A DNA stretch of 64,000 bases, taken from contig CM114271.1 in assembly GCA_050084515.1 (NCBI GenBank), positions 31,372,001 through 31,436,000 of the forward strand, in the 5' to 3' direction. This DNA is from Blasia pusilla. Its lineage: Eukaryota. The notes under the pieces are model-generated. The model was not told the DNA's origin and ran no database searches. It was given only the letters and a program-made list of their open reading frames with translations. The position numbers were made by a program, and so were the translations under genes. Positions 16,095 through 62,460 of this stretch are shown piece after piece (within the stretch, counting starts at the first letter, position 1; the number at the start of each line of letters is the position of its first letter).

Positions 16095-16559
16095 GAGGGG
16101 ACCGATGGGCGTCAGACCAGGGTTCCCCAATCGTTCACATTATCGGAAGCACTATATACACCGACGATGGTGCCTCGACAACCGTTAGTACCCACGGGTG
16201 TGGCAGGTGCGTCGACGTCATGAGGAGTTAGAGAGACGACCCCTATGCGGCTTGAGAGGAGCCAGTGTCGACCACGTTGTTGGAGGTGGCCACTAGGGTG
16301 AGCTAGACTCTGTTGTTTTCTGCCATGGAGTTGGCGACATTGGGAGTTGGACCAACGGAGGTGTTCTGGTTGGCTGCCACGTTGTGTAAGCGTAGAGAGG
16401 TAAGTACCTCTCATTCAGAGGTAGTTGATGAGGTGGTGGACCCGTCCTCAAAGCAGATGCTTGGGATGTCCCCCACTAAGTCATGGCATGCGGTGGCGGC
16501 AAAGTTGGTAGATATGCCACCTCGACCGGCCATAGAGCGAGCCATGATCACATCAGGTA

Positions 16560-16963
16560 TGGTGTTTTTGGATAACCGAGCAAGATTTTTTCACTTGGTT
16601 AGTCCCTCATGTATAGTCTACCACCCGGAGCGCATTCTACTTGATTCGAGAGCGTAGCCCTTGATGTTAGGGAGGGCGGCGTGTTTGGAATTGGGATTAC
16701 AGAAAGACGACATCAAGCATTGTCCCTTTCAAATACACACCTCTGTGGGGGGATTATTACCCATGCATTACCTGACTCGACATGAGTTGGTGGTTAGACT
16801 CCAGACAGAGCATGAGTCAAATAGTGCGATGGTGCGTACATGGGGGATTACGACACCGGCAGTGTCGTATGATATGTTGGTAGGGAGTATAGTGTTGTAT
16901 CCCCTTGGGTTCATTCTGGATTTTTGGGAGGAGACGGTTTCTTATCGGCCAGGGTGGCAATGA
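16560..16963 (+). pseudogene. Gypsy aspartic protease remnant
   Basis: ILLDSRA*PLMLG (degenerate D-S-G) followed by SYDMLVGSIVLYPLGFILDF. Confidence 0.75.
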
Positions 16964-17271
16964 GACGATGGACGGGTAATCCATCTACGGGTATTGTTTG
17001 GAGGGAGTAGTGGTGGTCGACCACGTGAGGATATAGTGACCATCTTGGCAGCATTCACAGGTGGTGTTAGCTGATTAGGAGGGTTTGGGGAGAGGAGCAC
17101 ACATGCGGAGGACATTCCCATAGCGGATAGTCTCACGGAGAGACATGTCAGGATGGATGTCTCTTCCCATGGTGCAGAGCTTCGTTATTATTGTTGGGGA
17201 TAAGCGTTGAGATGCGTAGAGTGCAAACAAGCTCGTGAGACAGGCATAGAGCCGTGCCTATGTTTGGAGTA

Positions 17272-17325
17272 GGGTACGAGAGTGTTAGATCTCTTTGGAG
17301 GGATCAACACGACAGGTTGCTGCAT
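17272..17325 (+). pseudogene. C5 cytosine methyltransferase motif I remnant, truncated by the LTR
   Basis: ggt acg aga gtg tta gat ctc ttt gga ggg atc translates to GTRVLDLFGGI, the SAM-binding motif I. It lies ~310 bp downstream of the protease on the same strand. Confidence 0.65.
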
Positions 17326-38500: not shown

Positions 38501-39316
38501 GTTAACACAAAGTCGGACGCACCGGCTTATACAATGCCCGGAAAACTAGCGCCTTCCCTGCAAGAGAAGACTCCAGGTCCAGGGGCTTATAATGCCGACG
38601 AGAGACCTCACAGTCCTGCTTTCACAATCGCTCAGAAGTTGAAGTATTTTGACAAGGAAGTGAATCCAGGTCCAGGCACATATTCTCCAAATGGACCTGG
38701 TAAAGGCCCGGCCTACAGCATGGCTTTCAGGCATGAAGAAGTCGTGGATCCACGGGCACCTGGTCCGGGTACTTACGACATCAGACCTGAACGAGGCCAA
38801 GGAGTAAGCATGGGCCAGAGGTATAAAGATGTAGCTGATTGGGAGAGGCCTGGTCCAGGATCTTACGACCCTAGAGGCAGATCGGCAGCTCCCGCCTACA
38901 CTATCGCTGGCAGACCCGTAGAAAGTGCAGATCAAGGACCGCCTGGCCCCGGAGCGTACACTCCTGGTCCACAAGATGGAGCACCTGCATACACGATAGC
39001 AGGGAGATGGCAGGAGTCCAAGATAGAGAAAGGACCAGGACCAGGTGCTTACAATCCGGATGACAAGTCTGGAGCACCAGCTTACACAATTGCTGGGCGG
39101 CATTTGTATGAAGGAGATACATCTGGGCCGGGGCCAGGTGCGTATGAAGCGCCACCAGCAACTGCCCCCGCCTTCTCTATCGCCCAACGTTTCAAAAACA
39201 AACTGCTGGAGAAGACACCGGGACCAGGGACGTACAAGCCCGACGTTAATCCCACAAAAACCAAATCCCCTGCTTTCAGTATGAGGAAACGACCCTTTTG
39301 GTTTTACTTGAAGTAA
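32555..39316 (+). CDS. Giant sperm-tail PG-rich (SHIPPO/ODF3/STPG) repeat protein, ~2253 aa, 72 PGPGxY repeats; probable axonemal or microtubule-associated protein
   Basis: Uninterrupted 6.8-kb ORF of ~31-aa units PGPG(A/T)Y-x8-PA(Y/F)(T/S)(I/M)AGR. A splice-acceptor-like tttgcacAG at 32550-32551 precedes ATG 32555, so the ORF-track start (32531) probably lies in an intron. GC-richer upstream DNA (30400-32500) with GT donors suggests 5' UTR exons. Confidence 0.93.
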   Translation: MEPYFRDKTPGPGTYNVDPASRTVSPSPPAYSMAVKFRARDTSDQPGPGAYTPRVGGRGPAYTIPGRGDQHRGPDGPGPGAYTPGVDGTTPSSPAYTMPGRYKAGTGAKSPGPGAYNVRAKAAGPHYTIAGRRASSLSDKTPGPGAYDAGSSSGAPAYTIAGRFHEGTSDRGPGPGTYNVKIRSSAPAYTLPKRLGNLRLNDTPGPGAYSGNARLVHPREPAYTLAARQHDPTGPAGPGPGEYSPNPRDKGPAFSIAGRPDDRNRENFPGPGAYNADDRPTSPCYTIAGKAPASNLEKGPGPGAYDPRDKSGAPAFSMAGRYIVGLGENVPGPGAYNLPGGSAPAFTIAGRLGKEDPFPNPGPGAYNPDLRSGAPSYTIAGRRDEHYDPRAPGPGTYNPELKSGAPAYSMAGHHPDGPSFQGPGPGTYNVRSGPDGPAYSMPGRNERKAVDEAPGPGAYSANLPGGTPAYTIAGRYKATLGPKTPGPGEYSVRIKSGAPAFSMAGKHAAGIGDNVPGPGAYNLPGGSAPAFTIAGRLEKEDPFSNPGPGTYNPDVRSGSPSYTIAGRREEHYDPSAPGPGTYNPLLKSGAPAYSIAGHHSDGPSFQGPGPGAYDVRARDDGPAYTIAGRPQDSVNDNSPGPGAYSPDGKNYTPAYTMGSRNAVLPGDGPKPGPGAYNPRDKSSAPAYTIAGRTQAGRGDNNPGPGTYNLPDGSAPAFTIAGRHEIVDPFAGPGPGTYNPAIGGHGPAYTMAGRHDMSGRDGPPGPGAYTAAQGGGGPAFTIAGRHEDHSPDSNPGPGTYTVAGAAGGPAYTIAGKPQVNTSSASPGPAAYSPILNYTLYTAPAYTIPGRDHASKIDQSPGPGQYNAPQSPRGPAYTLAARVRESTLEKVPGPGAYENVHRSASPAYTIATKLAYKENEISPGPGTYTIRPDPGGPAFHIAHRYEYKHGPDAPGPGAYNPDKRSGSPAYTIAKKWRTEPQDSSPGPADYNVHIHSGVPAYSIAGRPIGPQGDQGPGPGAYMCYVKSSAPAFSMAGRYIPSHAPPYPGPGHYENRPKSAAPAYTIAGRQHIIVAVRTPGPGAYNLPEGSAPAFSIATRFKRGSEEASPGPGAYLVIKKSGAPAYTISRRYKIRVGEDTPGPGAYVAPASPYTPAFSIAGRFKDPHNFMVPGPGTYNIIAKIGGPAFTIPGRPFDSKGDQTPGPGAYTLGFLGGPPAYTIAGKDKDLRIEKGPGPGAYNVSRALCGPAYTIAARWAESLAERTPGPGTYNALDAKSPAFSIGIHLNNRAIEQTPGPGTYTLAKILAGPSYTIAGRHPYGPEDKTPGPGEYKIDPKLFGYRPPAFSLGAHLGKRALDEGPGPGAYSPRHGPAGPAFSIPGRPLDPQGERGPGPGAYSPDKPSGAPAYTIASKAVPDLIPKTPGPGHYNNLPPSGASAYTIAARWHDSFQEKTPGPGAYQLPDYNAPAFSIAGRHDVADPHPSPGPGTYNNLPASDAPAYSMAARNDRVDPAPGPGPGAYSPEQRSGFPAYTIAAKWKLGLEVESPGPGAYNVRLPAPGPAYTIAGRADDGRGDQNPGPGAYNPDPGSVAPAFSMAGRYLPSHEPKTPGPGAYKIVLPKGLAYTIAGKHKDSLAANTPGPGAYEDLRPSSAPAFTIPIRFKYKEDVVGPGPGTYSPRKDLGGPAFSMPGRPIESYEGNSPGPCAYNLPKVGGAPAFSMARRYDAHLNPDTPGPGAYQPRPDGTGPAYTIAARDIDPKKDDIPGPGAYSPDPHGAAPAFTMGSRYLESHAPKTPGPGQYDNLPPSGTPAYTIAARPHESGLEKSPGPGAYAPQDMHTRPPAFTIAIRLPYFDQEKTPGPGAYSPVKRSDAPAYTIPGRNEPKYPQIVPGPGAYSPESTSPRAPAYTIAAKWRHGLEGEGPGPGTYNVQLQPSSPAYSIPGRDNAPKSDMTPGPGAYEAEPNPYTPAFSIAGRFDAHKPDKTPGPGQYNVNTKSDAPAYTMPGKLAPSLQEKTPGPGAYNADERPHSPAFTIAQKLKYFDKEVNPGPGTYSPNGPGKGPAYSMAFRHEEVVDPRAPGPGTYDIRPERGQGVSMGQRYKDVADWERPGPGSYDPRGRSAAPAYTIAGRPVESADQGPPGPGAYTPGPQDGAPAYTIAGRWQESKIEKGPGPGAYNPDDKSGAPAYTIAGRHLYEGDTSGPGPGAYEAPPATAPAFSIAQRFKNKLLEKTPGPGTYKPDVNPTKTKSPAFSMRKRPFWFYLK

Positions 39317-41930: not shown

Positions 41931-44900
41931 CTAGTAAGGTGTATGTGCCTATATGCTAGGAAATGAAAAAACGTTTGAAGAATTACTGGATAATTCGTGT
42001 AGGGAAAATATTAATGATGATGTACACAAATTCGGAATTTTTTTTATTGTCCGTAACATGTGAAAAATTTTCTCGTTGCCCAGTTATCATGTGTCAAACT
42101 TAGAAGTGTTTGCAAATCAAGAATACACTCTTCCATGAGCTGCTCGTACGATGCAATGAAAATAAAACATTCTTTGAAAAATTAGTACATAACTCATGGA
42201 GGGAAGCGATTAATGATGTTGTGCATAAATTCAAATATTTTTCTTGTTGCCCGTAGCATGTGAAACATAACATGTGCGGTGTAACAATTTTTGAAATTTT
42301 CTTTTAAGAAAAAAAAATCTCTTCGTCCAACTTATTCACATGTCCTCTATACTTGTTTACCAATTAATTTTCTTCCCCTTTCTCTTTACATTATAGTTGT
42401 GTGACATAGTTTTCTTTTTCCTAGATAGAAAGGGCTAAAAAACAGGTGTTAGAGACAAGAGGATTTTAAAATTATACTAAAATTTTGAAATTGTATTTAA
42501 TTCCAATTTTTCCATTTAATTCCCACCTTTTTAAAATCTTAAAAGAGTAAGACGATTTCACCTATGAATAATACCCATCTCCTCTAAATAATTTCACCCC
42601 TTCATACAAGTTAGAACATTAACTATTCTTCCCCTTCCACTCTTCCTACCAAAATAATATTAAATAATTAAATTCTTAGTTAATTTTAATTAATGAAATA
42701 ATATTTTATTTTTATTCAAATTTATTTTTCTTTCCCAAAATATCACATGTGAATTAACATGATTATTTTACAAATTAGTCACATTATTCATCTCAAATTT
42801 TAAACATAAATTTTATTTTCTAAAATCTTCGAAGAGTAATCATAATAATCTATATTATTATGGGAGAGTGCCTTTTTGATTTGCAAACACCTCTCTGTTT
42901 GACGTGTGACAACTCGGAAGCAAGAAAATGTTTCACATGATACGGGCAGCAAGAAAAAAAATTTATGCGCAACATCATTATTCGCTTCCCTCCATGGGTA
43001 TACACTTATTCTTCAAACAAATTTTTATTTCCCTTTCATCGCACGGGCATCTCATCTATATTATTATGGAAGAGTGTCATAATAATTAACTATTAACATC
43101 TTAACTATTAACTAATCTTCCCCTTCCATTCTTCTTACCAAAATTTAATTGAATTATTTAATTTTTAGTTAATTTTAATTAATGAATTAATTTTTCTTTT
43201 TTACTCAAAAAATTTTCTTCCCCAAAATATCACATGTGAATTAACATTATTAGTTTTAAAAATAAGAAAAATCTTCCTTTCAAATTTTAAATAAAATTTA
43301 TATTTTCTAAAATCTTACCAGAATAATCATTACTTTGCACTCTAATAACATTCCATTCTTCTAAGTAATTACACTCCTCCATTAAAATTTAAATGATCTC
43401 CCAATCCCCTATGCAATTTTACCCTTCCATAAATTTTAAACAAGATCTATTCCTTTTCCATTAAAATTCATTTTCTCTTCCTATTAAATATGAATTAAGA
43501 TATAAATTATAATTTTTGGGTTATCTATATTATTATGGGTACGTGTCTTCTTGATTTGCAAACACCTCTCTGCTTGACACGTGGCAACGAAGCAACAAGA
43601 AATCGTTTCACATGCTACAGGCAACCAAACAAAATTTGAATTTATGTGCATCATCATTAATCTCTTCCCTTCACGGGCTATAACTAGCTCTTCAAACACT
43701 CTTTTATTGCCCGTGCATCGCACATGCATCATATCTATATTATTATGGGAAAGTGCATTTTTTATTTGCAAACACCTCTTTGCTTGACACATGGCAACCA
43801 AGGAGCAAGAAATTGTTTCACATGCTACAGGCAGCCAAAAATAAATTGAATTTATGTGCAACATGATTGATCTTTTCCCTTCACGGCCTGTACACTAGCT
43901 CTTCAAACACTTGCACGGGTACCTTATCTATATTATTATGGGAGAATGCTTTCTTGATTTGCAAAAACCTCTTCGCTTGACACGTGGCAACTAAGCAGCA
44001 AATAAATGTTTCACATGCTATGTGCTGCAAGAAAACAATTGGAACTTATATGAAGCATCATTAATCTCTTCCTTTCACAAGCTATACACTAGCTCTTTCA
44101 CGGGCTATACACTAGCTCTTTCATGGGCTATACACTAGCTCTTCAAACACTCTTTTAATTCCTATGCATTGCACGGATACCTTAGCTATATTATTATGGG
44201 AGAGTGCCTTCTTGATTTGTAAACACTTCTATGCTTGACACATGACAACTGGGCAGCAAGAAAATGTTTCACAAGCTACGAGCGGCAAGAAACAAATTTG
44301 AATTTATGTGGAATATCATTAATCTCTTCCCTTCATCAGATGTACACTAGCTCTTCAAACACTTTTTTATTTCCCGTGCATCTTACTAGTTTATCATAAT
44401 AACTCCATCCTATTTATATTTAGGATCACCCATTATAATATTAATTAAATCATTGATTGATTAAAAAACCTTTTTCTATTTCGCCCAAATCACTATCCTT
44501 TCTCTCTATACATCTATCTCTATCCATCTAAAATGACTCAAACAACAAAATTAATACATGTTGCCTATTTTATCTTGTTATCTCACTATCTTATCGTATT
44601 ATACTTGTAGCGTCGTCCATTATAATATAAACAGATAAATAGATAGGATAGTCAAAAGAAAAGGTCATCTCAAAATGAAATCATCTTTATTTTTAGCAAA
44701 TAGAGTATATGGTTCTTGTCGAATAGTTGGAATTCAATTGTACTCCGAGGATAGGTGATTCAAAATTATACATTTGTGCCTAATACGAGTATGAGCTAGT
44801 TTAATTTAATTCTCTCCTCTTAACTATGACAAATTTTAGGGATTCTCCATATCCATCTTCTCTTTAAAGGTAATACTAGTTGTATGCTTGTGCTTACGCA

Positions 44901-45480
44901 TGAAAAATATTTTTTTATAATTCAAAAATATTTTTTATTCCAACATTCAAGTACAACTTTCAATTTTTAAAATCTTAAAAAAATAAAATTATTTAAATTT
45001 TAAATAATATCCAATCTCCCTAAATAAATTCACTCCTCCATAAAAGTTTGAACAACACATACTCTTCCCCTTCCATTCTTCCCACCAAAATAATCTCCAC
45101 AAATTAAATTATTCGTTAATTTTTTAATGAAAATATTTTATTTTTCCATTAAAATTAATTTTCCTTCCCAAAATATCAAATGTGGGTTACTTTTATTATT
45201 TTAAAAAATAATCATATTCTATATTTGAAAATTTAAAAGTAACTTTTTTTTAAATCTTATAAGAGTAATAACATTCCATTCTTCTAGATAATTCCACTCT
45301 TCAATTAAAATTTAAATGATATCCCAATCCCCTAAATAATTCCATCCTTCAATAAAATTTAAACAATATATGCTCCATCTCCCTTAAAATTTATTTTTCC
45401 CTCCCATCAAATATGAATTAAGGAAGAAATTTGTAATTTTTTTGTTATTTTTTCTATTTATCCCACCTTAATATCATCTA
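41931..45480. mobile_element. Cluster of non-autonomous Helitron fragments in both orientations
   Basis: CTAG 3' ends at 41931 (-), 44386 (+) and ~44877 (-); repeated TCTATATTATTATGGGAGAGTG 5' ends (~42850, ~43055, 43524 onward); AT-rich family shared with 1250-1900. Confidence 0.8.
43524..44389 (+). repeat. Head-to-tail array of four ~210-bp mini-Helitron units
   Basis: Units start at 43524, 43734, 43927 and ~44185, each with a cccgtgcatcgcacggg-type hairpin. Only the last ends in CTAG|T. Confidence 0.88.
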
Positions 45481-45941
45481 GCATAGTGACTACATCACAG
45501 GCAAAGCGATACAACATACAACGTAAGCCTGCATGAACTACTACTAAGTTTGGATTAACTGTACCGTCAATGTTACGAAGGTTACACATGGCAAAACCTC
45601 ACGCACTCTCAAAATGGTGCACCCTACAGTCGCATCCAACGTCATGGGTGTCGTCTGCTGCAAGTAGACATAGTCTCCCTGATGAAACCTTCGGATGGTA
45701 AGTCGATAACCACCTCCGCAAATAGTCTCATACCTCAACGCATCCCGATATTGCGCAATTGCTAAGTTCTCAAACGCCATGGACATCACTCTCCAAAATA
45801 ACTGGATTCTCTAAGAACATGCTCACATCCATACATCAAGATCATCAAGGTTCAACACCTCACCAGTATCTCGACGAATGGCCACTTGTAAATGTGGTTG
45901 TCGGTCGCAAAGAAACAAATATATTGAGAAAGATGTGGTCG

Positions 45942-47213
45942 TGTCGAGAGCCTTTCTTTCAGTAAGGGTGGACCAGCTAGTTGCGGCAAACGTGGTTGAT
46001 GCAAAGTGAATTCTATAAGAATTTCTCCTTTCTCAGTACAGAATTATTATATAAACCCTCCATTATCTCACGATAGGAATCACGAATGGTAGTGACGATC
46101 ACTTCTTCATAACATTGAATCCCAAACTTCCGAACTATGAAGTCCTTGTAAAGTACTTTACACTGGTACACAAGAAAAATAGCACAACTAGTGTTAAATC
46201 CTACTCGAGCAGGTTTGTTACCATCCATGGATCGCTATATAAGAACATATAACGTACAATCCCATGTTCTCCCATACGTGATAATAGGAAGAATGATCGG
46301 AGTTGAAGATTGCATGACTTGGTTCATAAATGCCTCCCCAAAGTGATAAACTAGGTAGCAAGTAAACCAATGTCTATCTACAAAGAGAACCTTCACGTAG
46401 TACGGGTTAAGGAAAGGAAAATCATGTACAACTCCTGCTCCATCCCTATCCATACTTCATGGACATTCTCTATCCTCCTCAAGAATGGGTTTTGGCGGAG
46501 TTGCTCTCCCAAGAAGCGTAATTCACTTTCATTGGGAAGATAACAAGTCAAAATCATCCACTATCTCTAGTATGACTAAAATTCCCTAAGATGATAAGTC
46601 TCTCATCTCCACACATACCACATTCTAGAAAACCTCTCGAAGAATAGACCATGATCAAGTTACTCTCCCAAGAAAGGTAATCCACTCTCATTGGAAGAGC
46701 AAGCAAGCCCAACGCCATCCACTCAAGAGTGACGCGAGAGCTCAAGAAATGAAGTAGAAGGTGGTAAACCCTTGAAGGTCCCTCCTCTTTATATACTCAC
46801 AAGGGATCGACAACAGTACGAAATAGGGCTAATCTTATCTTGTGCCACATGGCCTCCTCTCAAGGCTTAGCCAATCACATTTTGACACAAGTAGATTATC
46901 TCTTATCTATTCCAAAATATCCTCCTTTACTCACTTCATATCTTCCAAACTACTCCAACTACCCTAGCAACCAACCAAGACTACTTTTGCTTTTGTTTCA
47001 TTAATACACCAACCCCATTACTTTACTTTTATAATCCCGTGTCTCATTTATTACCTCTTTTCCTAAAGTTGGGCCCCCATAAAAGAGGCACCATAAAGAG
47101 ATTTAAACATGAATATTTTGTTTTCCTAAGCTAATTAACTTAATACTAATAAAACTCTCTCTAACGATTAATGAGAGAGGAATTTATATAGTGGGTGATT
47201 TTACTAAACGACA
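45942..47213 (-). mobile_element. ~1.27-kb solo-LTR-like insertion inside the Gypsy integrase
   Basis: TGTCG...CGACA termini and a TATATAAA box (~46790). The integrase frame resumes on both sides (RKASL | SFSIYLFL). A homologous copy starts at 63629. No clean TSD was seen. Confidence 0.65.
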
Positions 47214-50200
47214 ACGGTAAGGAGGCCTTCCTGTTGAATCTGTATCCCATCGCCAACCACGGAAACCCGAGCTCTTAATCTCCTAAGTGACCTCTTTGTA
47301 AGCCATACTTGCGTAAACCTCTCTTCACCGTCTGCATAACCCTCATCGCTTGTCCATCCGCCTCAAGATGATCTCGAAAAATGGTGCGGTGGTCGATCAA
47401 CGCCTGCTCATACAAGCCTTGAAACTCCTCGTGAAAGTTCGTACCCTAGTATTTCAACATCTCATCTAGTGCACCATAATGACTCAACACTCTATCTAGG
47501 AAGGCAAACTGTGAGAAAACATAAAGTGACAAAATCACTTAAATCTATTACAGAATTTGGAGAAACAAAATGGCTAGATTCTATGAGCGTGCTCTCACAA
47601 AAGAGCTTTGATGGAACCTGAACATAAAGATAACTTAACATACAAGAATACATTGCTGTTGCGGCTCTCGACTATTTCACTACTCATAAAACTCAGGTTT
47701 TTTACATGTTTTTTTTTTCTATTAATAGATTTTTTTATCGAGGGTTGCGACTTCGGACCCCCGCGTCACATCAAGGTGTCCTGCACCCCGATGCAATATA
47801 GGGTTAGATAATCCTAGTAACGCTACTCCATAAACCACCTACGTCATATTACTATGAATCCTCCGACGTCTAAGTTGGAACCATAATTCTAGGCTTCTCC
47901 TCATAGAAGGGGGTCGATCAAATTAATGATGCTTAGAGAAGTGGATGTTGAGAATCCAACATATACGCTACTCCCTCACTCGCTTTGTCATGCAATGCAA
48001 CCAACTCTATCCACTTCGAGAAGTGTTTAACCATCACCAACACATAACCACTATGGCGCTTTGTCAAGCGTAAGGTCCTGCTAAAACCAAACTCTATCTA
48101 TAGCCTAAACCTATGATCGAAAGTGGATGCAACTGTGGAGTCGGAGCATTGAACGATATCCGGACCCGATCACACACCATACACTTAGCAACAAACTACA
48201 AAATGTCAATGTGCATGGCTCGCCATCAATATTGTATCTAGAGCAAGTTGTCCATCCGCTTCACTAAAAAATGGCCCAACTCCTCATACCAAACGTACTC
48301 TCACTGAAGGATGAGGCACTACACGTACTTTACCATCCTCCCAAACTCGCAGCAATGTGTCCTCTCCCACCGGAACCGTTTGGCTCGTTGTAGGATCCGA
48401 TCCCGCTCTTTAGCACCCAATGTGCTCGCGACGCTGTGAGTACCCAGTCACTCCAAGACTACTCCATCCTCGTGAATATCTTGTTGTCTTCTCACCGGCC
48501 TCTAGATCTAAGGACTCTCCATCAGACCTCGCCATCAAAATCTCAACCCTCTGGCTCTCAAGAGCTAACAAGCCCAAATAGGCTGATGCGTGTTATCTTG
48601 GCACTCACTTCTCATCACTCTCTCGATGCCGTCGAGCTCAAGTTTCATCTCGTTGACTTGGGCCTGGGTTACGGCTCAAACCATCTACATCTTGGTTGAG
48701 CGTTCAAGGTCTATGTACTACCTGGAAGTCATACTTTTGCAACAACAGAGCCCACCTCGCAAGCTTCCTTGTAAGATTATTGGACTCCATCAACCACTTA
48801 AGTGATTGATGATCATAAAGGATGGTAAAGGGGTTGCTAAATAAGTAACATCGCAAATGCGCGAGAGCCCACACTGCAACCAAACACTCACCCTTATACA
48901 ACCTATACTTCGCCTCTACAACGTTGTTTGAGCGACTAGCACAAGCCACCACGAACTCTCTATCCTCATCGTCATGTTTGGTGAGCACCACTCCAAGCCC
49001 CAACATGCTCCAATCTGTATGCAACTGGAAAGGACTCGCCCTGATCAGTCTCCTCAATATGGGCACGGACGTCGATCTATCCTTAAGCAGTTGAAATGCT
49101 CTGTCGTGCTCATCCCCCCAGTGCCACTTGTGATCCACCTTTGCAATCAAACTAAAACCCTTCTCATACCATTGATAGAAGTTCACCTACCCTATAAATA
49201 CACGAACTCGACTCACATATACATCTTTAAGGCGTGGAATACGTGAAATAGCCTCTATCTTTGTCTGCTGCACACCAGGGCCACCTAGGTATATTGTGTG
49301 ACCCAAGTACTCAATCTGGTCGTACAAGCACTTGCACTTGTCTGGATGTAGCTTTAGCCCATCTTACTGTAATCGTCAAAATACCTCTCCAAATGTCGCT
49401 CATGCTTCTCAACCATGGCGCTATAAACTACGATGTCATTAATATAACACCTAACAAAATCCAAACCTGCCAAAATCCTATCCATGATCCTCTAAAACTC
49501 TGCCGAAGCATTCTTTAACCCAAATGGAAAGAACCGCCAGTGGTACAAACGATCCTTCTTGTGAGGATCGATGCCCCAAAATGTCATCTACTTTTTGTCT
49601 TCCAATGTGATAGGCAACTAATGGTATCCGGCTCGAAGATCTAATGAACTAAAGACCTTTGCATGCCCAATAGCATCAAAAATCTCGTCAGATGTGGGCA
49701 TGGTATACCTATCAAACTTCGTCTACTGATTGATAGGCCGGAAATCTCCACACATCCGCCTATCCATCCAATTTCCTTGCACATCCTTCTTGGAGGGCAT
49801 GATATTGGCAAATGCATACTCACTACACGACATCTCCACTAGCCCTGCTCCAACTAAGTCATGGCTCTTACTCTAAATCAGAGCCCTCTCCATATCACTA
49901 TACCTATATGGTCATTGAAAGATTGGTGTGTTGCTATACAACTCAATGCGGATCCATGGACCCTTTTGCGTACCCAAATCATGCATACTAAATGCAAAAT
50001 AACTCATGTAACTCATAAGGAACTGATGTATCCAACGTCGTTCTCCTCCAATCAACTTAGGGCCCATATCTAGCTCCCAAGTCTCCATCGTGACAATAGT
50101 AGGGCTCTCAAGCGTGTGTATCAATGGTTGCTATGATGCAACCCCATCTTGGACAATATAACTCAATTGCTCCCCTTCATCCAACTGCAAACTCTCATCT

Positions 50201-50440
50201 CCTCCATGTGTAGTATCCGAAACCACGCTCGATGTTATGGTTGTTATCTCTCAACGTACCTGCAAAACATCCCAATAAGTCCAAGGATGTCTCTCTCGAT
50301 CACCCCTAGCATGTCGATCTCCTCGGGTCCCGCCCCTAGCCACTACCTCAACCGTCTCGATAGGCATGGGGCTCACCAAGACAACACTTGTATGTAACAT
50401 GTCGCAACCCCATCCGATGCTGCTCAGCTACTCCTAAGTT

Positions 50441-50655
50441 GATTATCCATATCAAGCAATTTGGGTCCATCGCCTGACCTCAGCCATGACGTTGTGATAC
50501 CTCAACTAGTGACGGTACTATCGTCACTCCTATGGGAAATCCCATCGCTCGCTCTTGCTCATCAACATTGGGCTTCACCACCCACTGCAGCTGATTATCC
50601 CAAACCAAGCCAAGCACGGCTTCCTTGTATGCATAGGAAGTAGAAAACTCAATAT
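50441..50655 (-). pseudogene. DNMT3-like C5 methyltransferase C-terminus (motifs IX-X) directly upstream of the Gypsy RT
   Basis: Minus-strand translation TSYAYKEAVLGLVWDNQLQWVVKPNVDEQERAMGFPIGVTIVPSLVEVSQRHG*GQAMDPNCLIWI matches the DNMT3 pattern E.ER.FGFP..YT....S...R..LLG.SW. Confidence 0.8.
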
Positions 50656-53600
50656 CTTGCTCTTGTCTGCTCTAATTGAGAGGTGTTGGTACCAACATCA
50701 AAGAAGCATAGTTGGTAGCGTTTGGATCCATTGCATTGTCCATGCTACACGTACTGCAGGCCTACAAATTGTCAATAGGATCATATCAACCTCTTTCACG
50801 AGACGACCCTAGTGTAGTCCTGGGGTGAGTTCTCCCACGTTGCCCCTTGCTCTCCATCGTAGTAGTTCATCCATTTCTTTTTGTCGTCTTGCCATGATGG
50901 ATTCATATGCCCTCCTCCATTGCTCCGTATGGTCTACCATTATAGCTCATTGTCTTATGTGGAGCTCATGTCTGGCAATTGATCCATTCACGATCCTCTC
51001 CATCTCTCTCTTTAGTCTCTCGTGCTCCTCACATAATTCTTGGTGTTTCCCCTTCAAAGCTGAGATATAACCTCGATATATCTCGTCTATCACCTAAGAA
51101 TAGCGCCGCTATCTAGAAGGCGATCAAAAATCTCTCTAGGCCCATCAAATCTCATATTACCACCTACAATATTGAGGTCATTCAAAATACCTCTTAGGTC
51201 CTCAAAAGTCTCCTCCTCCAACTGAACTCGCCCTTCATTTTCATTTTCGTGATGTATCTCCTCTTGAGTTCGCGAATTTCTTCATTGCCCATCCAAATAA
51301 GATAGTAGGCCTCTAAGGCTTCTTGACAATCCACCACGCTGGTCTTGGCCAAATGACTCGTTTTGGTAAAAGTGCTCCTTGCTATCCTCCATCGGGCCGA
51401 GAAGATAATGGTTGATGTTCATATCGTGGGTATAGGCCTATATTTCCAATTTTGGTGGACTATGAATCCATAGTCTTTTTTATTCCATTGGTGGGGATAT
51501 TTCATCTTGTGCACTCGGTCTCTTATCTCTTCTCAAATACCTATCCTCCACATCACTATAATGAACCTCCATGCCCTTTCATCAACTTGAGGACTTTGAG
51601 CTTGACAAATACCTTGCTCACTAACTTGTGTTTTCTTGTTCACCTTCGTGGACGTTGGCCATCTCAATGTATTGTGGGATTCTTCCATTCTTTCTTCACC
51701 CTTTGCGTCAAGAGGACTATAGTCTTCATGAGGAAATAACTTCATCTCCAACTTGTCTTCTACCAAATTCCGAAAAAAAAAGGTTGTTACAAACAAAATT
51801 CAATAGTAGTGACATAATGACACATAATACATCCATGGAGCATACATCTATGATCATTTACAATCATTCAGAGTCACACATTCATATTTTTCAATCATTT
51901 CTTATATTTCTCGTGAAAAATATACAATCCTCAAAAAAATTACAATCACACTATGTTCCTTAATCATCACTCAACGAGCACATTGAGATGGTCTAAATCC
52001 GGAATCTATATCGTCTAAACCTTTTTTTTTGCATTTGCTCTCATTTATGCAATAAGATAGTCTAGGCTTTTATAATCAGAGAGGTTCAGAGCTAATGCCT
52101 ACTTTTGAGCCCTTTTCAAAGAATTCCATTTAACATTCGCGTAGGCATCCCTCAAAGTAAGGTTGTATCTTACATAATTCATTTTTTCACAATCATTCAT
52201 AGGGCATAGATTTGTGTGGCTATGCTAAAAGGAAGATTCTTAGGCCCTACTGTTAACTCCGATGCTATATACCCAACATGCTTGTTTTGTTCATGGGGCC
52301 ACCATCTCTGAGCCAAGACTAAGCACTCATCCTCCCATAAAGCATTTCCCCAATCTCTAACCCTGATGTATGGCTCAAAGTTGGATCCAAAATGGTGAAA
52401 AAGCATGAAGGTTGGTATGAAAAACTCCATGCTTGTGGGTTGTCTTGTTAGTAACTTACAAGGAAACCACATGCTAGATCACATTTGATGCCATTGCGAG
52501 ACATCTAATTTTGTGCAACTCTCCTAAGATTTCCCCTATGTTCTTCAAGGTATGGCATGCTTACATGGCATTTCCAAGATACCAAATATTTCATGAATAG
52601 ATGGTACGCGGTACGTGGATTCTTGATCTATCTTCCCACCATGGGAACCATCCCTTGATGTAAAATAGTTGTAAATATCTCCTCACGCATCATTGATTGT
52701 CTTGAATACAACTAAGATGCTTCCTTGAACACCTTCATGCAATAGTAAACATCGTCACTAAAGCCAAGGGTTTTGTTTATTTTACACTGATACACAATTC
52801 TGTGTAAACATGACCCCAGACAAAGTATCCTCAAGATCATGTCCTACTTTTATATCTTTGAAAAAATCCACATACATCCAAGTGGAACGACCAATGTCTT
52901 CCCTACGAGAGAATTAACACCCTTTAAAATAAGTTGAGTATTTTTTAAATCTACACTAAATCTCTCTAGTAGGGTTGTCTCTACAATGATCAGCTTCTCC
53001 TTCTCGTATGTCTTGAGATCGACATACACTCTCTCCAAGTTAACACCTTGTTGGACACAAAATGCACTTAACCTCTTGGCCTCTTTGACATCGACTTCCT
53101 AGTTCCATCCCTTCTAAACTCTCATAGAAAATCTATGGAATTCCAAGGAGTAGTCTTGGAAACCGTCTATATCCCTCAAAATGTAGGATCGTCTCTTCTC
53201 TAATGTAAGTTGGAAAAACCAATCTAGCCATGCCTCTTTCATACCCATGTTAAAGTCATTCCTAGAATTGACTCTTTGCCCCTTGGCACCATCACTACAC
53301 TCCATTCAATTATCTTCTACTCTCGATGATTGAGCCATACTAAACATGTAGCTCAGAGGAATAAGATAGGAAGATTTCCTCCTAAACCAACGAAAGAAAT
53401 CTAAAGGTGGAGATTATGAAGTATCAAAAGTTTTAGAACTTATGATGTTATAAAAATGGCTTGTTCAATGTATATAAGTGTGAATGATGAAATAAGGGAT
53501 TTAGGTTTAGGGTTTAGCACTTAAAGGGAATACATGATCGCTCAATTAAGTTTTCTTGATCACCTCCACATCCTTGATGTGTTAAGGAAAGGCAATGAAA

Positions 53601-53989
53601 AAAAATATAAACTCAAGACCGTTAACCAAAAATCTCAAAATTACCAAAAAAGTTCAATGACACAAGAGAATTCCACACTCATAGCCTCTCACCTAATGTG
53701 GAATAAATTAGAGTTGGTTTAAGACACAACACGCTCAAGGAGTGTAAATATCCAAGTTGGTCACCGAAAATCTAACTATCCCCAAAGGCATGCAACGGAT
53801 ATCCCCACAATTCCTAGCAACCTTGAAAGTCCTTAACTCTCAAGGCAACAATGAAATTTGGGACCTAATCCAAAACTAATCCTACTCTCAAAAGAAAATG
53901 AGTAAAGATATGGAAAATAGAGAGAAAATGTTAGTAACTTAGTCCCTAATCACCCACTTATGATCGGTTTAGGCCCCAATTGTAGACCC

Positions 53990-54390
53990 TTTGGTGACAC
54001 TCGATCCAGGTTGTTTTGGGAGATGATGAGGATTTTCCAACACTTGCAAGAGTATCAATCCCGTTCTGGAGCATACACTCTAGAGATTATGCCTATTTTG
54101 GGCGATTGGCGGTCCCTTGTGGTGATGAGTGCACGTCAGCTATGCGCATGGATTGGCCCGACAATGTTTTTGGATGCGGCGAGTGTAGGTTCACAAGCAC
54201 ATTGGCTGCATCTATGGTGGACCAACTTTGTGCCACATAAGATGTTGCGGAGGCATATGCTCGAGTGGAGCGCCCCTCCCATTTTTTGTGGATTCCATTC
54301 TCGATCCGAGTCGATCACATGCAATGAGGCATGATGATCAACCGCCGTTGATTATGGTCAACAAGGTTGGCTTGCCATCGGCAACCTTTG
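53990..54390 (+). pseudogene. DNMT3-like C5 methyltransferase central fragment (post-motif IV, VI, VIII)
   Basis: GDTRSRLFWEMMRIFQHL ... YTLEIM (decayed ENV) ... IGPTMFLDAASVGSQAHWLHLWWTN, comparable to DNMT3 GRLFFEFYRLL ... FENV ... [21 protein letters not shown]. Confidence 0.8.
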
Positions 54391-55262
54391 GAGGACGACT
54401 ATAAAATAGCCATGTGGCGAGCTAGGATTTTAGGATTGGACGTACACAGACTTGACGCGGGCCTTGAACCTCCGCGCATGCTAGGCACGAGCCTCTTGTG
54501 GGCTTGTCGTGATTAATCGGGATCATCCGGCATGCAAGTCATGTTTGGGCCCAACTTGTCCACGATGCAAGAGCCAACATGCTCGACATGGGCTAGAAAT
54601 CAGGCAACAAATTGGGCATCGGGTTTTTGGAAAGAGATGGGGGGCTACCCGAGCAAGGGCGTAATGTTTGGTTGGCGTAGGATCACATGCGGACCGCGGG
54701 TACCCGGGCCCAATCCCCCTCAAACATGTTCGCGGACACAAACATTGTCCGTATATAACCTTGATTGGAAGATATGGTGGACCTCCATCACCATATCCTA
54801 GTGAGGCATGGCCTCCTAGTGGGATATAAATGGAATCCCACACGCGGTGGGTGGTTCTCCTTTGGACCATCGCCTCAAGGCAATGGTTCTTGGCCTTATC
54901 CAGTGGGAGAAAAACATAAGTGGGCCTCTAGTAGTGTCTCCTCACAATCCCTATGGGCTTCCTTTGTAAGTATCTCATGTGGACGTATTTATGAGATTCT
55001 ATTGGAGAAATAAGAACGACTTGGAAAATATATTATGGTGATGGAAAGCTTTCATTATTCAACTATCCATTACATCGTGAACTAGTTTGTAAATTATATA
55101 TGAACAGGGTGGATGAATAGAAGGACAAGATACATTTCATATAGGTCAAACCTCTTGTCATTATAAAGTTGGGGATGAGGTACCTCCGAGTGCAAATTAG
55201 TCTTGTCCATCACCATGCATAACTTAGAGTCTGAAAGATGGGGTACTACCTGTTGGTAACAA

Positions 55263-55403
<141 letters not shown>

Positions 55404-57310: not shown

Positions 57311-59699
57311 ATATAATCAGCTAGAAACAAATATTAGAAAAGTACACTTTTGGAATAATTCCTCGTCTGCACATATGAATTAGTCATTTACTCCACGTGG
57401 TATATAGTAATTTGAAAAATCCACTTGGAAATTTGTAGGTTTTCATGAGAATTCTCGTAATCATATGACATAGAATATAGGATAGAGTCATTTAATCCAA
57501 ATGAAAAATATGCATGGAGTCATGTGTAGGTTGTCACGTCTTTTAGGATAGATCGGCGAGATCTAGTAGAGTGCCTTCAGAGATACTGGAGGGCAGCCTC
57601 TGGAGGTTGAGGATGACTTGCTCACGCCATGGGTAACTTGAGAGAGTCCGTTTCACCTTCGTTTCGGCTCATTTGGAGCCATATATAGAAACTCATTATT
57701 TTAGGCAAGTTGCCATTTAGATTATAATTGACTGTCTACTTTGGGAAGTGAGCCAAGGAGGTGACCTGCGAGCATAGATTACCAATGAGAGAGCTTGGGA
57801 GAGGGAAGGGGGTATACCTCCAAGAGAGAGAGTTTGAGAGTTCATTCTCTTTTTGTTGAACCTCTTGGCATGAGGCAGTAGAGCTATGGTCCTTCTTTCC
57901 TTGTGTGTGTAACCCAAGCCTCTCACTAGGAGAGTGGGTTTGGTTTGACATGAGAGAGAGTGCACACCAAGGAGATCTTGGTGTGAGATGTTGAGAGAGA
58001 TATGATCGATTTTCCGAAGAGAGAATGAGAGAGCTTCAATGGAGGAGCTCGCTGGTCACTCGCTATTTTCGCAGGTTGGGGACTATGTTCCCTATTCAGC
58101 GGCTCATGGGAGTGCTCATCGGAGCAAGAGCTGCTTGATTTTTCTGCTTTCTTTGCCATTTTTTCGTACAAGAAAGTGGAGCGCGGAAGCGTTGCCCAAT
58201 TTGTGTTAGAAATTGAGTATGGGGGCGGTTTGCCCCATGCTAGTGCTCTCGAGGATACCTTGTAGCTTGCTTGTTCATGTGTTTATAGGTTTGAAGTTTT
58301 TTTTTGGAGAAATCAACGCGGAAGCGGTGCCAAATTTTTCGTAGGAGTGCAGATTGAAGGGATGCATGACAGTCCCTATCACTTTCTATTGGAAGGTTGA
58401 ATGGAGAAACCAATTTGAGGAGGTCGTGTATTGGAAAGCTGTGTACGTTGTGGAAGAAAGGATGCAAATTAAATTTTTTGAGCAGGAAATTACGATTATT
58501 TTTGTGTGGCTGCCATAACCACCATTCCAAGGTGTGAGTGAAATTTCCAAAATCCTTGGGTAGAAATCTTTTTGAGGGGTAGAAAAGTAAAAAAAAATTA
58601 TGATTGAGTGGATAGGACAAGGAAAAATGTGTTTGGGAGTAGAAGTTGAGTGAATTTTTTTTTCTTGGGGGAGTTGATCCACCACTTGTGGAGTTAGTGG
58701 GCAAATGTCGGTGTAGATCCGGATTTTAGGGGGATGTTTTAGTAAAATCCCACCAAAAAAAAACCAAATGGGGGACGGACGTCCGCCATCTGCCAGAGTA
58801 CGGGGTCACTACGTGGCGCCACGTCCCGGTGCCGTCCGCGCTCTGACCACGTCGCGGGACTGCCCCATTGCGCCATTGGCCTTTCCCGTGAGCCTGTAGT
58901 TTGTAGTCGGCCGCTGGTTGATGCAGTTCCCGTCGCTGAACTTTGGGTCCAATTGCCCTTGCCGCGACACCAACCTGATTTTCCGCCAAATCTTCGCCCA
59001 ATGTTGCTGCCAGCCCTGCCAACTCCCGCCGTCAGCGCTCCCGCGGCCGCCTGGTCTGGCCGCATTACCAGCGCGGAGCCTTTTGTAGGCTGCCGCCGAC
59101 TCCTCTTGCGTCGTTGCTGCAGGCCCTGCATCGCCGCGACTACTGTAGTTGCCACGCCTTGGGCGCCGCTTGACCGTTTCCTGCCTCTTACTTGTTGCGT
59201 TAGCCTCACGATAGTCCGAGAGATCATAGGTGTTATTGCTGCCTCGTGGGCCGTGTCTGAGTGACGGCTCGTAATCGGGATCGTCTCTAGTAATGCCCGT
59301 GCTAAAACTTGCCGGCGGCGGCACTACTCACGGTCGGCACCAGATATCCGAAGATGGATATCCCATTTTATGTGGATGGCAGGGTCTCATACACATGTAA
59401 ATGGCATGCGGATGGTGAGTGCATGCCATCGCACCGTGTCAGATTTGAAATTCAAATGTAGTACGCTATAAATCAGCAGCAAGACTGGGCTGGGCAAATC
59501 TCATTCCAGCCTTCCACGCTGGAAACCATGTGAGGGAGTGATGTTGCAACGGTGGCGCATTGGAGAGGTAGTGACCCCGCCTGCCCTAAGGGATTTTGTC
59601 TGCAATTCTTTCGTTGAGGCCTGAGGGAGCTTGTTTGCAATTCATTTGTCGTCATGTTGCCTCAACCTGCTCCGTATTTGCTTTTTCAATCTACTTTGG

Positions 59700-62460
59700 T
59701 CCAACAGGCGCTGATTTCTGAACGTTTTGGCTTCTTCATCGTTCATGCTCCTGTTAGCTCTGTATTGTTGATCCTGCTTCGTTCGTGGTCCTATTCCTTA
59801 TTGGCTTGAGTGGGATTGTTCGTATTGGCTTCAAATGTATTGTTGAATCTCCTGTATCCGTCCGTGAAGGTGAGGTTTGTGTACATTTTATGAACATGAG
59901 AACAAGAGGAAGGGTTCAATCATTGCGCAGGTGTATTAGGTACCTCCTGTGATAAACCCACGAAGATTTTGGCCCGATGTTGACATCCGCGTCTCCAATA
60001 CTTACTGCGAGTTTGGAATGCCTTCCATAAGCACATTTGGCAGCGCACGAATTTAGGGTCAATTTGCGTGCATATCTTAAGGGGATTTGGAGCAACTGTT
60101 TTATTCATCCGATTCTCGTCCAAGTGTAATAGGTTCCGTGCATTAGCATATTATTTAGAGATGTAGCCATTGGTGTTTTCTTTTCTATTATGCATGTTCA
60201 TCGGTCAAATTCGAAATGCCACTTCTTCGTTCATGGTCATGTTGGCTCTGTATTGCTGATCCTGCTTCCTTCCGTTCATGGTCCTATTCCTTCTTGGCAT
60301 GAGTGGGATTGCTTCGTATTGGCTTCAAATGTATTGTTGAATCTCCTCTTTCTGTCTCAACGTGAAGGTAAGGTTTGTGTACATTTTATGAACATGTTTG
60401 TCATTGCATAGACTGTATGAGGTGGGTAACTAGATGGGTTCAATCATTGCGCTGGTGTATTACGTACCTCCTGTGATAAACCCACGAAGATTTGCGGCCC
60501 GATGTTGACATCTACGGCTCCAATACTTACTGCAAGTCCGGAATGCCTCCCATAAGCACAATTGGCAACGCACGAATTTAGGGTCAATTTGCGTGCCTAT
60601 CTTAAGGGGATTGGAGCAGCAGTTCTATTGATCCGATACTGGTCCAAGTGTAATCGGTTGGGCGCGTCAGCATATTATTTAGAGATGTGGGCATTGGTGT
60701 TTGCTTTTGTAATATGCATGTTTAGGTCAAATTCGAAATGCCACTTCTTCATTTGAACATCACATCAAGAGGAACGCGTGTATGAACACGTTCACTTCTC
60801 CCCACCGATGTGTATGAACACGTTCATTAGACAATGTCGGAATGCTTGCGAGTATCCCATTAGACAATGTCGGAATGCTTTCCATGAAAATTTACAAGTA
60901 ATGGGTTCAATACATTTGTGAACATCAGATCAAGACGAACGTTCATTAGACAATGTCGGAATGTTTTCCATGAAAGTTTACAAGTAATGGGTTCAATACA
61001 TTTGTGAACATCAGATCAAGACGAACGTATGTATGAACACGTTCATTTCTCCCCACCGATGCGTATTACCCATGGACGGGTTCAATCATTGCACATGTGT
61101 ATAAGGTACCTCATGTGATAAACCCATGAAGATTTTTTTGGCCGGATGTTGACATCCGGGGCTCCAATACTTACTGCGAGTCCGGAATGCCTACCATAAG
61201 CACAATTGGCAGCATTTAATTTAGGGTCAATTGAGGCGCTGTTTGTTTTGACAGAGTTAGAATGCTTTCCATTTTCAAGGTTGGCATGCGATGGGCTTTT
61301 CTATTCATTGGGTGCCATTGTGCATGGTCTAGTCCATATTCATTCCTTCAACCTTGTGAATGTAATCATTATCCTGGTATGTCGTGGAGAGATTTTGGTT
61401 CATAGTTAATTTGAAGTGCAAAGCCTTGCGAGTATCCCATTAGACAATGTCGGAATGCTTTCCATGAAAGTTTACAAGTAATAGGTTCAATACATTTGTG
61501 AACATCAGATCAAGACGAACGTATGTATGAACACGTTCATTTCTCCCCACCGATGCGTATTACCCATAGACGGGTCCAATCATTGCACAGGTGTATAAGG
61601 TACCTCATGTAATAAACCCACGAAGATTTTTTTGGCCCGATGTTTTCATCTGAGGCTCCAATACTTACTGCGAGTCCGGAATGCCTTCCATAAGCACAAT
61701 TGGCAGCGCACGAATTTAGAGTCAATTTGCGTGCCTATCTTTAGGGGATTTGGAGCAATTGTTTTATTCATCCGATTCTCGTACAAGTGTAATAGGTTCC
61801 GCGCGTCAGCATATTATTTAGAGATGTGGCCATTAGTGTTTGTTTTTGTAATATGCATGTTCATCGGTCAAATTCAAAATGCCACTCCTTCATTTGTACT
61901 CTTTGTTCTCTATTGTCTCATGGATTCTACCGTGTACACATATTAGGTGTTGTAAGTAACTACTTGAAGCCATGGGAAGCCGTTGGTATGTGTTTGTTGA
62001 AAGCTGAGGCCGTGTTTGTTTTGACAGAGTTAGAATGCTTTCTATTTTCAAGGTTGGCATGCGATGGGCTTTTATATTCATTGGGTGTCATTGTGCATGG
62101 TCTAGTCCATATTCATTTCCTCAACCCTGTGAATGGAATCATTATCGTGGTATGTCGTGGTATGTCGTGGAGAGATTTCGGTTCATAGTTAATTTGAAGT
62201 GCAAAGCCTTAGGAGTATCCTATTAGACAATGTCGGAATGCTTTCCATGTAAATTTACAAGTCATGGGTTCAATACATTTGTGAATATCAGATTAAGACA
62301 AACGTTTTTATGAACATGTTGATCCCTCCCCACCGATGCGTATACAAGTCATGGGTTCAATACATTTGTGAACATCAGATCAAGACGAACATTTTTATGA
62401 ACATGTTGATCCCTCCCCACCGATGCGTATACAAGTCATGGGTTCAATAAATTTATCATG
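59700..62460. repeat. Complex mosaic tandem repeat built from shuffled modules
   Basis: Module A (gggttcaatcattgc...aaacccacgaagattt...ccataagcacaattggc) at ~59912, ~60436, ~61078 and ~61572. Module B (cattagacaatgtcggaatgctttccatg...gaacatcagatcaagacgaac) at ~60825, 60858, 60944, 61438 and 62221. Confidence 0.9.

What the first reader, a model, noticed from the sequence alone, without database searches (positions are those of the whole stretch)
53990..54390. Central DNMT fragment (post-IV, VI, VIII) inactivated largely by CpG-type transitions
Seen: RSRLFWEMMRIFQHL...LEIM...LDAASVGSQAHWLHLWWTN. The motif VIII arginines (H-R-x-R) appear as TGG and CAT, each one CpG transition away from CGG and CGT. 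Gln codons (CAA) at probable Arg positions in the motif IX/X fragment fit the same pattern. Inference: the methylase gene was itself CG-methylated and decayed by 5mC deamination.
Basis: partly seen in the sequence, partly recalled or inferred. Interest (0 to 1): 0.7.

Follow-up and report, generated by a model that had tools for sequence, protein, structure and literature searches.

The report
Decayed methyltransferase piece of liverwort retrotransposon
This is a broken piece of a very abundant liverwort jumping gene that carries its own DNA methyltransferase, and it has decayed the way other silenced jumping genes in this genome do, so the decay is ordinary while the element extends a rare algal type into land plants.

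Summary
53991-54389 (+) is the middle of a DNMT3-like domain inside the pol frame of a Gypsy retrotransposon (gag-PR-DNMT-RT-RH-INT-PHD, repeats A-coding-B-A-B, thousands of candidate places) in a liverwort-like genome. It is built like KnitGypsy-Dnmt3 of Klebsormidium; the scan noted this kind before in a peat moss. The peptide is there, and four adjacent CpGs around motif VIII are all mutated, but the kin codon under TGG is CGC, never CGG (0 of 84). 'Inactivated largely by CpG transitions' fails: CpG transitions are 10 of 54 differences and alone explain 5 of 22 amino-acid changes. CAG/CTG sites mutate as fast or faster; the CpG rate is the same (18%) in RT-RH-INT; a Copia family without a methyltransferase shows the same spectrum. 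The copy also lacks motifs I and IV, has two frameshifts, an A>T change in ENV, and its continuation lies on the other strand at 50651. Best reading: a dead copy eroded by host CG plus CHG methylation (MET1- and CMT-like genes are present). Unexplained lead: transversions at CWG run 2.4-4.3 times those at CG in both families.

The parts
53991..54389 (+). Middle of the DNMT3-like domain of a Gypsy pol (after motif IV, through VI and VIII, into the target-recognition region); motifs I and IV are absent upstream
   Evidence: 76-83% identical to the same stretch of whole copies; kin hit PF00145 and DNMT3A; tblastn finds no upstream DNMT part here
54083..54091 (+). Motif VI, reading E-I-M where kin read E-N-V; N>I is an A>T transversion, V>M a CHH-context transition
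   Evidence: AAT in 28 of 29 nearest copies, window ATT; classes
54194..54211 (+). Motif VIII region, Q-A-H-W-L-H where kin read R-A-H-R-P-R; four adjacent CpGs carry transitions, plus one C>G transversion at 54205
54250..54309 (+). Two one-base deletions (near 54250 and 54279-54284) and a three-base deletion (near 54308) relative to most copies
50400..50651 (-). C-terminal part of the same DNMT domain (motif IX/X region); begins about 10 bases further on in the element than 54389 ends, on the opposite strand
45478..50399 (-). Linker, RT, RNase H, integrase and PHD remnants of the same copy, interrupted by insertions at about 47510-47962 and 45934-47213; 3' repeats not found
   Evidence: blastn and tblastn maps; Pfam order in whole copy L067
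50652..53990 (-). Sequence not from this element lying between the two DNMT pieces; 50652-51700 belongs to another repeat family that is cut at 50652
   Evidence: 77 matches in own genome; 6 of 6 fetched copies match up to 50652 and continue; no Pfam family on the minus strand
57531..58459 (+). 5' repeat A (starting TGTCACG) plus part of the leader of the same family, not collinear with the fragment

Best explanation
The stretch is a piece of one dead, rearranged copy of a high-copy Gypsy retrotransposon whose polyprotein carries a DNMT3-like cytosine methyltransferase between protease and reverse transcriptase (shown). While the family was moving, the domain was kept under purifying selection (shown by dN/dS between subfamilies); it probably methylated the element's own new cDNA (inferred from the Symbiodinium precedent, untested). 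After insertion the host silenced the copy with CG and CHG methylation by MET1- and CMT-type enzymes (inferred from spectrum and gene presence; no methylome seen). 5mC deamination then eroded CG and CAG/CTG sites along the whole copy at like rates, while truncation, deletions and a strand-switching rearrangement broke it. The motif VIII arginine codons fell because CGN codons contain CpG, as in half of the sister copies.
For: Domain order and repeats in whole copies. DNMT3A is the best solved match. dN/dS 0.089 over 263 DNMT codons, against 0.064 for RT. Window copy vs 17 older copies: transitions at CG 71 of 397, CWG 69 of 257, CCG 18 of 82, CHH 118 of 1209, A/T 55 of 1737; fragment CG rate equals RT-RH-INT rate. 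In 20 younger copies the DNMT region (CG 5.7%, CWG 8.4%) resembles RT (4.4, 7.6) and INT (5.4, 7.2). A 16-copy Copia family gives CG 5.99%, CWG 7.35%, CHH 1.49%, A/T 0.49% against 6.02, 7.85, 1.41, 0.78 for the DNMT element; no DNMT in those Copia stretches. 15 of 29 nearest copies lost one or both motif VIII arginines. A MET1-like exon and a BAH exon best matching entries 9mvy, 4fsx, 7ubu (that these are maize ZMET2/CMT3 is recalled) are in the genome.
Against: No methylation data were seen. Ancestral states come from site tallies of copies only 75-83% identical to the window, chosen by likeness to it, so some differences may be subfamily variants; the window copy is more diverged (0.132) than any of the 17 comparison copies (0.057-0.095). 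The youngest Copia family (10 copies) has CG above CWG (1.83% vs 0.50%, few events). In the older subfamily CG and CWG rates are equal when only isolated changes are counted (14.6% each). CMT rests on one 41-residue exon. The order of the lesions is unknown, so a CpG change could have come first.
Confidence: 0.85

Rival explanations
1. One reading: a methylase gene knocked out mainly by CpG deamination, possibly at CGs that it methylated itself.
For: Four adjacent CpGs at motif VIII and two CGA>CAA codons in the C-terminal piece are changed; CG transitions exceed CHH (P=0.006); transposon DNMT3s of Symbiodinium methylate CG in yeast (PMC5890265, Results read).
Against: 10 of 54 differences; 5 of 22 amino-acid changes by CpG transition alone, 15 of 22 with none; same rate outside the DNMT; same spectrum in Copia; the element is not CpG-poor (observed/expected 0.65-0.77, against 0.59 and 0.16 for two Copia copies).
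Confidence: 0.07
2. The transposon enzymes, made from many copies, act in trans and lay part of the CWG or CG methylation on all transposons, so the shared spectrum is partly their work.
For: Thousands of candidate places; catalytic motifs present in most younger copies (DLFGG 26, GWPCQG 21, ENV 29, HRxRxWW 25 of 29); plant and animal DNMT3s prefer CW (PMC6453930, passages).
Against: In Physcomitrella CWG methylation is controlled solely by CMT (PMC6453930, passage) and a CMT-like exon is present; the longest stop-free frame among 138 scored copies is 877 residues; the Klebsormidium enzyme gave no methylation in yeast, which the authors call inconclusive (PMC5890265).
Confidence: 0.06
3. A pseudogene or retrocopy of a host DNMT3 gene.
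For: DNMT3A-like sequence.
Against: Collinear with protease upstream and RT-RH-INT downstream in sister copies; no introns; groups with Marchantia, Calypogeia and Sphagnum polyprotein domains at 100/99.
Confidence: 0.02

Closest known systems
KnitGypsy-Dnmt3 of Klebsormidium nitens (de Mendoza et al. 2018, PMC5890265; Abstract to start of Methods read, passages of supplements 1 and 3; figures and the main supplementary PDF not seen)
   Same: Intronless DNMT3-like domain inside a Gypsy pol frame; DIRS-like repeats A-coding-B-A-B; purifying selection on the DNMT; silent copies carrying CG and non-CG methylation.
   Different: Here in a land plant, with thousands of candidate places against 33 DNMT genes in Klebsormidium. 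The position of the DNMT in the Klebsormidium pol is in a figure I could not see, and no named Klebsormidium sequence came up, so common descent is untested.
SymbioDIRS-Dnmt3 and SymbioLINE-Dnmt (same paper)
   Same: Methyltransferase captured by a retrotransposon; split repeats in the DIRS type.
   Different: Those use a tyrosine recombinase or are LINEs; this has a DDE integrase (rve), TGTC...GACA ends and 4-base target duplications. SymbioLINE-Dnmt is CpG-depleted; this element is not.
Methylation-driven decay of plant transposons (wheat, PMC2996936, passages)
   Same: Transitions concentrated at CG and CHG over CHH.
   Different: That study found no rise in transversions in transposons against introns and, in the passages read, did not split transversions by context; here CWG carries a transversion excess.
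Unannotated relatives in Marchantia polymorpha, Calypogeia fissa and Sphagnum troendelagicum
   Same: 49-65% identity over most of the domain for the best hits; some Marchantia records join DNMT and RT.
   Different: Deposited as hypothetical or unnamed proteins, not described as transposons in the papers I searched.

Membership tests
C5 DNA methyltransferase, DNMT3-like | Motifs I, IV, VI, VIII, X in unpermuted order in family copies | tested here: met
   DLFGG 26, GWPCQG 21, ENV 29, HRxRxWW 25, GQAMD 25 of 29 younger copies; order
C5 DNA methyltransferase, DNMT3-like | Closer to DNMT3A/B than to DRM2, DNMT2 or bacterial enzymes | tested here: met
   DNMT3A E=1e-7 and 8e-11; HaeIII 7e-6 and 4e-4; Arabidopsis-type DRM2 entries 0.06 and 2e-4. 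Sequence ranking only, no tree with host DNMT3
C5 DNA methyltransferase, DNMT3-like | Catalytic motifs intact in the window copy | tested here: not met
   Motifs I and IV absent, ENV reads EIM, HRxR reads HWxH, frameshifts
C5 DNA methyltransferase, DNMT3-like | Methyl transfer to cytosine | not testable with these tools
   Needs an assay
Ty3/Gypsy retrotransposon | Order PR-RT-RH-INT | tested here: met
   RVT_1, RT_RNaseH, Integrase_H2C2, rve, PHD in order in L067; weak protease hits upstream of the DNMT
Ty3/Gypsy retrotransposon | TG...CA ends and short target-site duplication | tested here: met
   TGTC...GACA; 4-base duplication in 4 of 5 copies with both ends read
Ty3/Gypsy retrotransposon | Two full matching LTRs with a tRNA primer site after the first | tested here: not met
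   Repeats are split A-coding-B-A-B; the 5' A is followed by a purine-rich run, not a TGG-type primer site (read by eye)
KnitGypsy-Dnmt3 type | DNMT3-like domain in Gypsy pol | tested here: met
KnitGypsy-Dnmt3 type | DIRS-like repeat layout | tested here: met
   B-B repeat in 17 of 20 younger stretches, A-A in 6 of 20 (most stretches did not reach the 5' end)
KnitGypsy-Dnmt3 type | Purifying selection on the DNMT | tested here: met
   dN/dS 0.089 between subfamilies
KnitGypsy-Dnmt3 type | Common descent with the Klebsormidium elements | tested here: inconclusive
   No named Klebsormidium row among hits; the tree holds only bryophyte and unnamed rows
DIRS/Ngaro tyrosine-recombinase elements | Tyrosine recombinase | tested here: not met
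   None in six frames of L067 1700-8901; one copy scanned

The most novel reading that the evidence does not exclude
Two bolder readings are not excluded. First, bryophytes carry a large, old clade of DNMT3-bearing Gypsy elements that replicate unlike ordinary LTR elements: both integrase ends are regenerated from an internal GACA-NN-TGTC joint in the 3' B-A-B block, by trimming or through a circle, and are then inserted by a DDE integrase with a 4-base duplication. Second, CMT-type methylation of CAG/CTG is itself a transversion mutagen in this lineage (C>A and C>G alike, and the middle base too), a signature distinct from deamination, perhaps from repair of closely opposed lesions or from methyltransferase side-damage.
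Probability: 0.3. Interest if true: 0.7.

Novelty: new member of a known kind. Interest (0 to 1): 0.35.

Why it matters
The decay itself is the normal fate of a silenced plant transposon and matters little. The family matters more: methyltransferase-bearing Gypsy elements were described from one alga with a few dozen genes, and here they are abundant in a land plant with relatives in Marchantia, a tractable model, which makes it testable why a transposon keeps a silencing enzyme. It also warns that counts of 'DNMT genes' in bryophytes are inflated by transposons. The CWG transversion excess, if general, would change how CHG methylation is thought to shape plant genomes and would bias transposon dating.

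Tried and rejected
Pfam on the window fragment alone found nothing; identity came from sister copies. The 29 least-decayed copies were rejected as the polarising set because they are another subfamily (78% to the window). A search on the downstream 952 bases gave an independent set, but only 7 of the 26 copies holding the fragment were of the older subfamily; it gave the same answer (10 of 54). A single clean inversion of 50652-54389 was tested: the cut repeat should resume at 54390. Only 1 of 6 copies gave a weak, misplaced match, so the rearrangement is described, not explained. 54390-54763 found no match elsewhere among 40 scored. The four-copy Copia group was too small to use; one of its loci (L160) has a DNMT match in its flank. 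PF00145 over the genome did not isolate host genes; nearly all of the 123 listed rows have the short match pattern of the transposon copies, and four rows on small contigs were not examined. A CGG ancestor at 54203 was rejected (0 of 84). Self-methylation as cause of the spectrum was rejected by the Copia control. Look-ups of earlier scan notes by sequence and by place were empty. No structure prediction, read mapping or methylome look-up was run.

Full report
Observation. The quoted peptide lies in a stop-free + frame at 53921-54334. Alone it hits no Pfam family. In the window's own genome (390 Mb, 26 contigs) it drew 8584 first-look candidates, of which the 150 scored all matched at E below 1e-31; these are not copy numbers. 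Sister copies hit PF00145.

What it is. Around the same stretch, whole copies show protease upstream and RT, RNase H, integrase and PHD downstream, the DNMT to PHD domains in one frame of copy L067. No tyrosine recombinase was found in six frames of that copy. The repeats are split: a 130-base B repeat occurs twice near the 3' end in 17 of 20 stretches, and a 500-base A repeat at the 5' end and between the two Bs in 6 of 20, most stretches not reaching the 5' end. Ends read TGTC...GACA, 4 of 5 copies with both ends read have a 4-base target duplication, and 20 of 30 A starts follow a B end at a spacing of two bases while the other 10 border unrelated flank. De Mendoza et al. (PMC5890265; Abstract through the start of Methods read, figures not seen) describe this combination, Gypsy domains with a DNMT3 in pol and DIRS-like repeats, as KnitGypsy-Dnmt3 of Klebsormidium. 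Named relatives are in Calypogeia (65%), Marchantia (62%) and Sphagnum (49%), and a copy from this genome groups with them at 100/99 (61 rows, being the fetched proteins that aligned over more than 220 residues of the domain plus one own-genome frame). A host MET1 exon is closest to Calypogeia (61%, next 54%), so the host is probably a liverwort (inference). Between the older and younger subfamilies the DNMT has dN/dS 0.089 over 263 codons, near RT at 0.064: it was kept while the family moved.

State of the window copy. It belongs to an older subfamily (nearest copies 80-83%; starred clade, longest end branch 0.23). Motifs I and IV are missing: homology starts at 53991. The fragment ends at 54389, and the element resumes about 10 bases further on at 50651 on the minus strand, running through the DNMT C-terminus, RT, RNase H and integrase to about 45478 with two insertions. 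Between the pieces lies other sequence, in part another repeat cut at 50652. An inversion is the simplest account, but the test at the far breakpoint gave only 1 weak match in 6. There are one-base deletions near 54250 and 54280 and a three-base deletion near 54308.

The CpG claim. Among the 29 nearest copies, 54194 is CGA in 14 and AGA in 9 (window CAA), 54203 CGC in 15 and TGC in 8 (window TGG), 54206 CCG in 19 (window CTG), 54209 CGT in 16 and CAT in 10 (window CAT). So four neighbouring CpGs are hit, but CGG occurs in 0 of 84 copies at 54203. Such a run has P=0.19 by permutation, and 15 of 29 sisters have lost one or both arginines. The two CAA codons at 50557 and 50494 do stand against CGA (12 of 17, 9 of 16). 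Against 17 older copies the fragment has transitions at 10 of 55 CG sites, 7 of 19 CWG, 1 of 12 CCG, 5 of 120 CHH and 5 of 179 A/T, and 26 transversions: CpG transitions are 10 of 54 differences. Two other comparison sets gave 10 of 57 and 10 of 54. Of 22 amino-acid changes in the 86 in-frame codons, 5 come from a CpG transition alone, 2 from one plus another change, and 15 from none; N>I in ENV is an A>T change. The CG rate in RT-RH-INT of the same copy is also 18% (56 of 314, P=1.0), and over the whole copy CWG exceeds CG (27% vs 18%, P=0.008).

Controls. In 20 younger copies, transition rates are CG 6.0%, CWG 7.9%, CCG 4.6%, CHH 1.4%, A/T 0.8%, similar across gag, protease, DNMT, RT, RNase H and integrase. 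Of 30 Copia loci, a 16-copy family of like divergence gives 5.99, 7.35, 6.00, 1.49 and 0.49; a 10-copy, much younger, CpG-poor family gives CG 1.83 and CWG 0.50 on few events; 4 loci were too few to use. Neither family used shows a DNMT in its loci or in three 9.9-kb stretches. The spectrum is therefore a property of silenced transposons in this genome and not of carrying a methyltransferase. The host has a MET1-like gene and a BAH exon whose best solved matches are 9mvy, 4fsx and 7ubu, which I recall as maize ZMET2, a chromomethylase. In Physcomitrella CWG methylation is controlled by CMT and CCG depends on MET1 (PMC6453930, passages); Marchantia has MET, CMT and CHG methylation (PMC5784723, passages); wheat transposons show transitions at CG and CHG (PMC2996936, passages).

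How it works. Shown: architecture, past selection on the DNMT, the lesions, and a CG plus CWG footprint shared with Copia. Inferred: host MET1 and CMT methylated the inserted copy and deamination eroded it; structural breaks removed the catalytic half. Inferred and untested: the active element's DNMT methylated its own cDNA, as proposed for SymbioDIRS-Dnmt3, which methylates CG in yeast; the Klebsormidium enzyme showed no activity there (PMC5890265). Limits: no methylome, ancestral states from tallies of 75-83% kin, order of lesions unknown.

Unexplained. Counting only isolated substitutions, transversions at CWG cytosines are 3.16% against 0.73% at CG and 0.38% at A/T in the younger subfamily (CWG above CG in 20 of 20 copies), 3.11, 1.18 and 0.38 in Copia (15 of 16) and 6.56, 2.78 and 1.01 in the older subfamily (17 of 17); the mirror context GWC gives 0.87, 0.67 and 2.27. 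C>A and C>G are about equal. The youngest Copia family does not show CWG above CG. Deamination does not explain this. Two literature searches gave listings in which I saw no such report; I read passages of only one listed paper.

Novelty. Six searches bear on the family; only the 2018 paper and a 2026 preprint (10.64898/2026.05.21.726589, passages) name it, the latter as 'streptophytes (Gypsy-DNMT3)' with no hit for Marchantia or bryophyte in its main text. PMC12344493 (passages) mentions DNMT3s inside retrotransposons of streptophytes. The 2018 survey table has no Marchantia or Sphagnum row. The main supplementary PDF of that paper, the preprint's supplements and subscription journals could not be read and may list bryophyte members. 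The ancestral-chromatin preprint 10.1101/2022.10.21.513199 (passages) did not mention such elements in what I saw. Verdict: a new member of a known kind; the finding as worded is partly right and mostly ordinary. Interest 0.35.

Noticed in passing
L061-L080, L141-L163, L183-L199 (own genome): Cytosines in CAG/CTG carry 2.4 to 4.3 times more transversions than those in CG, in both the DNMT-Gypsy and a Copia family; the middle base of CWG is also raised.
   Followed up: partly
L067:1224-9743 and sister copies: Ends TGTC...GACA with 4-base target duplications; the internal B-A joint is GACA, two variable bases, TGTC; a purine tract precedes the first B; the A-to-second-B joint varies by a few bases; no obvious primer site after the 5' A. 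Within-copy A repeats are 96.7-98.9% alike, between copies 91.6-98.0%.
   Followed up: partly
window 14651-17310 (+): A second, more distant member of the family (about 65% at DNA level): gag and protease, ending at the start of the DNMT.
   Followed up: no
window 32522-39316 (+): A 2264-residue open frame made of SHIPPO (sperm-tail PG-rich) repeats, 36 matched stretches; very long and in a single frame.
   Followed up: no
P0032, P0033, P0061-P0070, P0076 and others (unnamed records): Related polyproteins hold the DNMT either before RT or after it; most with the DNMT after RT fall in one supported clade, pointing to domain shuffling or repeated capture.
   Followed up: partly
L152, L158, L161, L164-L170: A very young Copia family (98.7% identity; LTRs of L201 identical) that is strongly CpG-poor (observed/expected 0.16) and CWG-rich (1.56).
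   Followed up: no
G000 contigs C20 and C23: The four strongest PF00145 matches of the assembly lie on these contigs and cover motif I onward, unlike the transposon copies; possibly foreign or viral DNA.
   Followed up: no
window 10642-11322 (+): Open frame with a C17orf113-type zinc finger, as found in some DNA transposons (recalled).
   Followed up: no
window 55265-55400; 42847-44355; 59966-62429: A long CT microsatellite, a cluster of 90-200-base dispersed repeats, and a tandem-like block of 87-270-base repeats.
   Followed up: no
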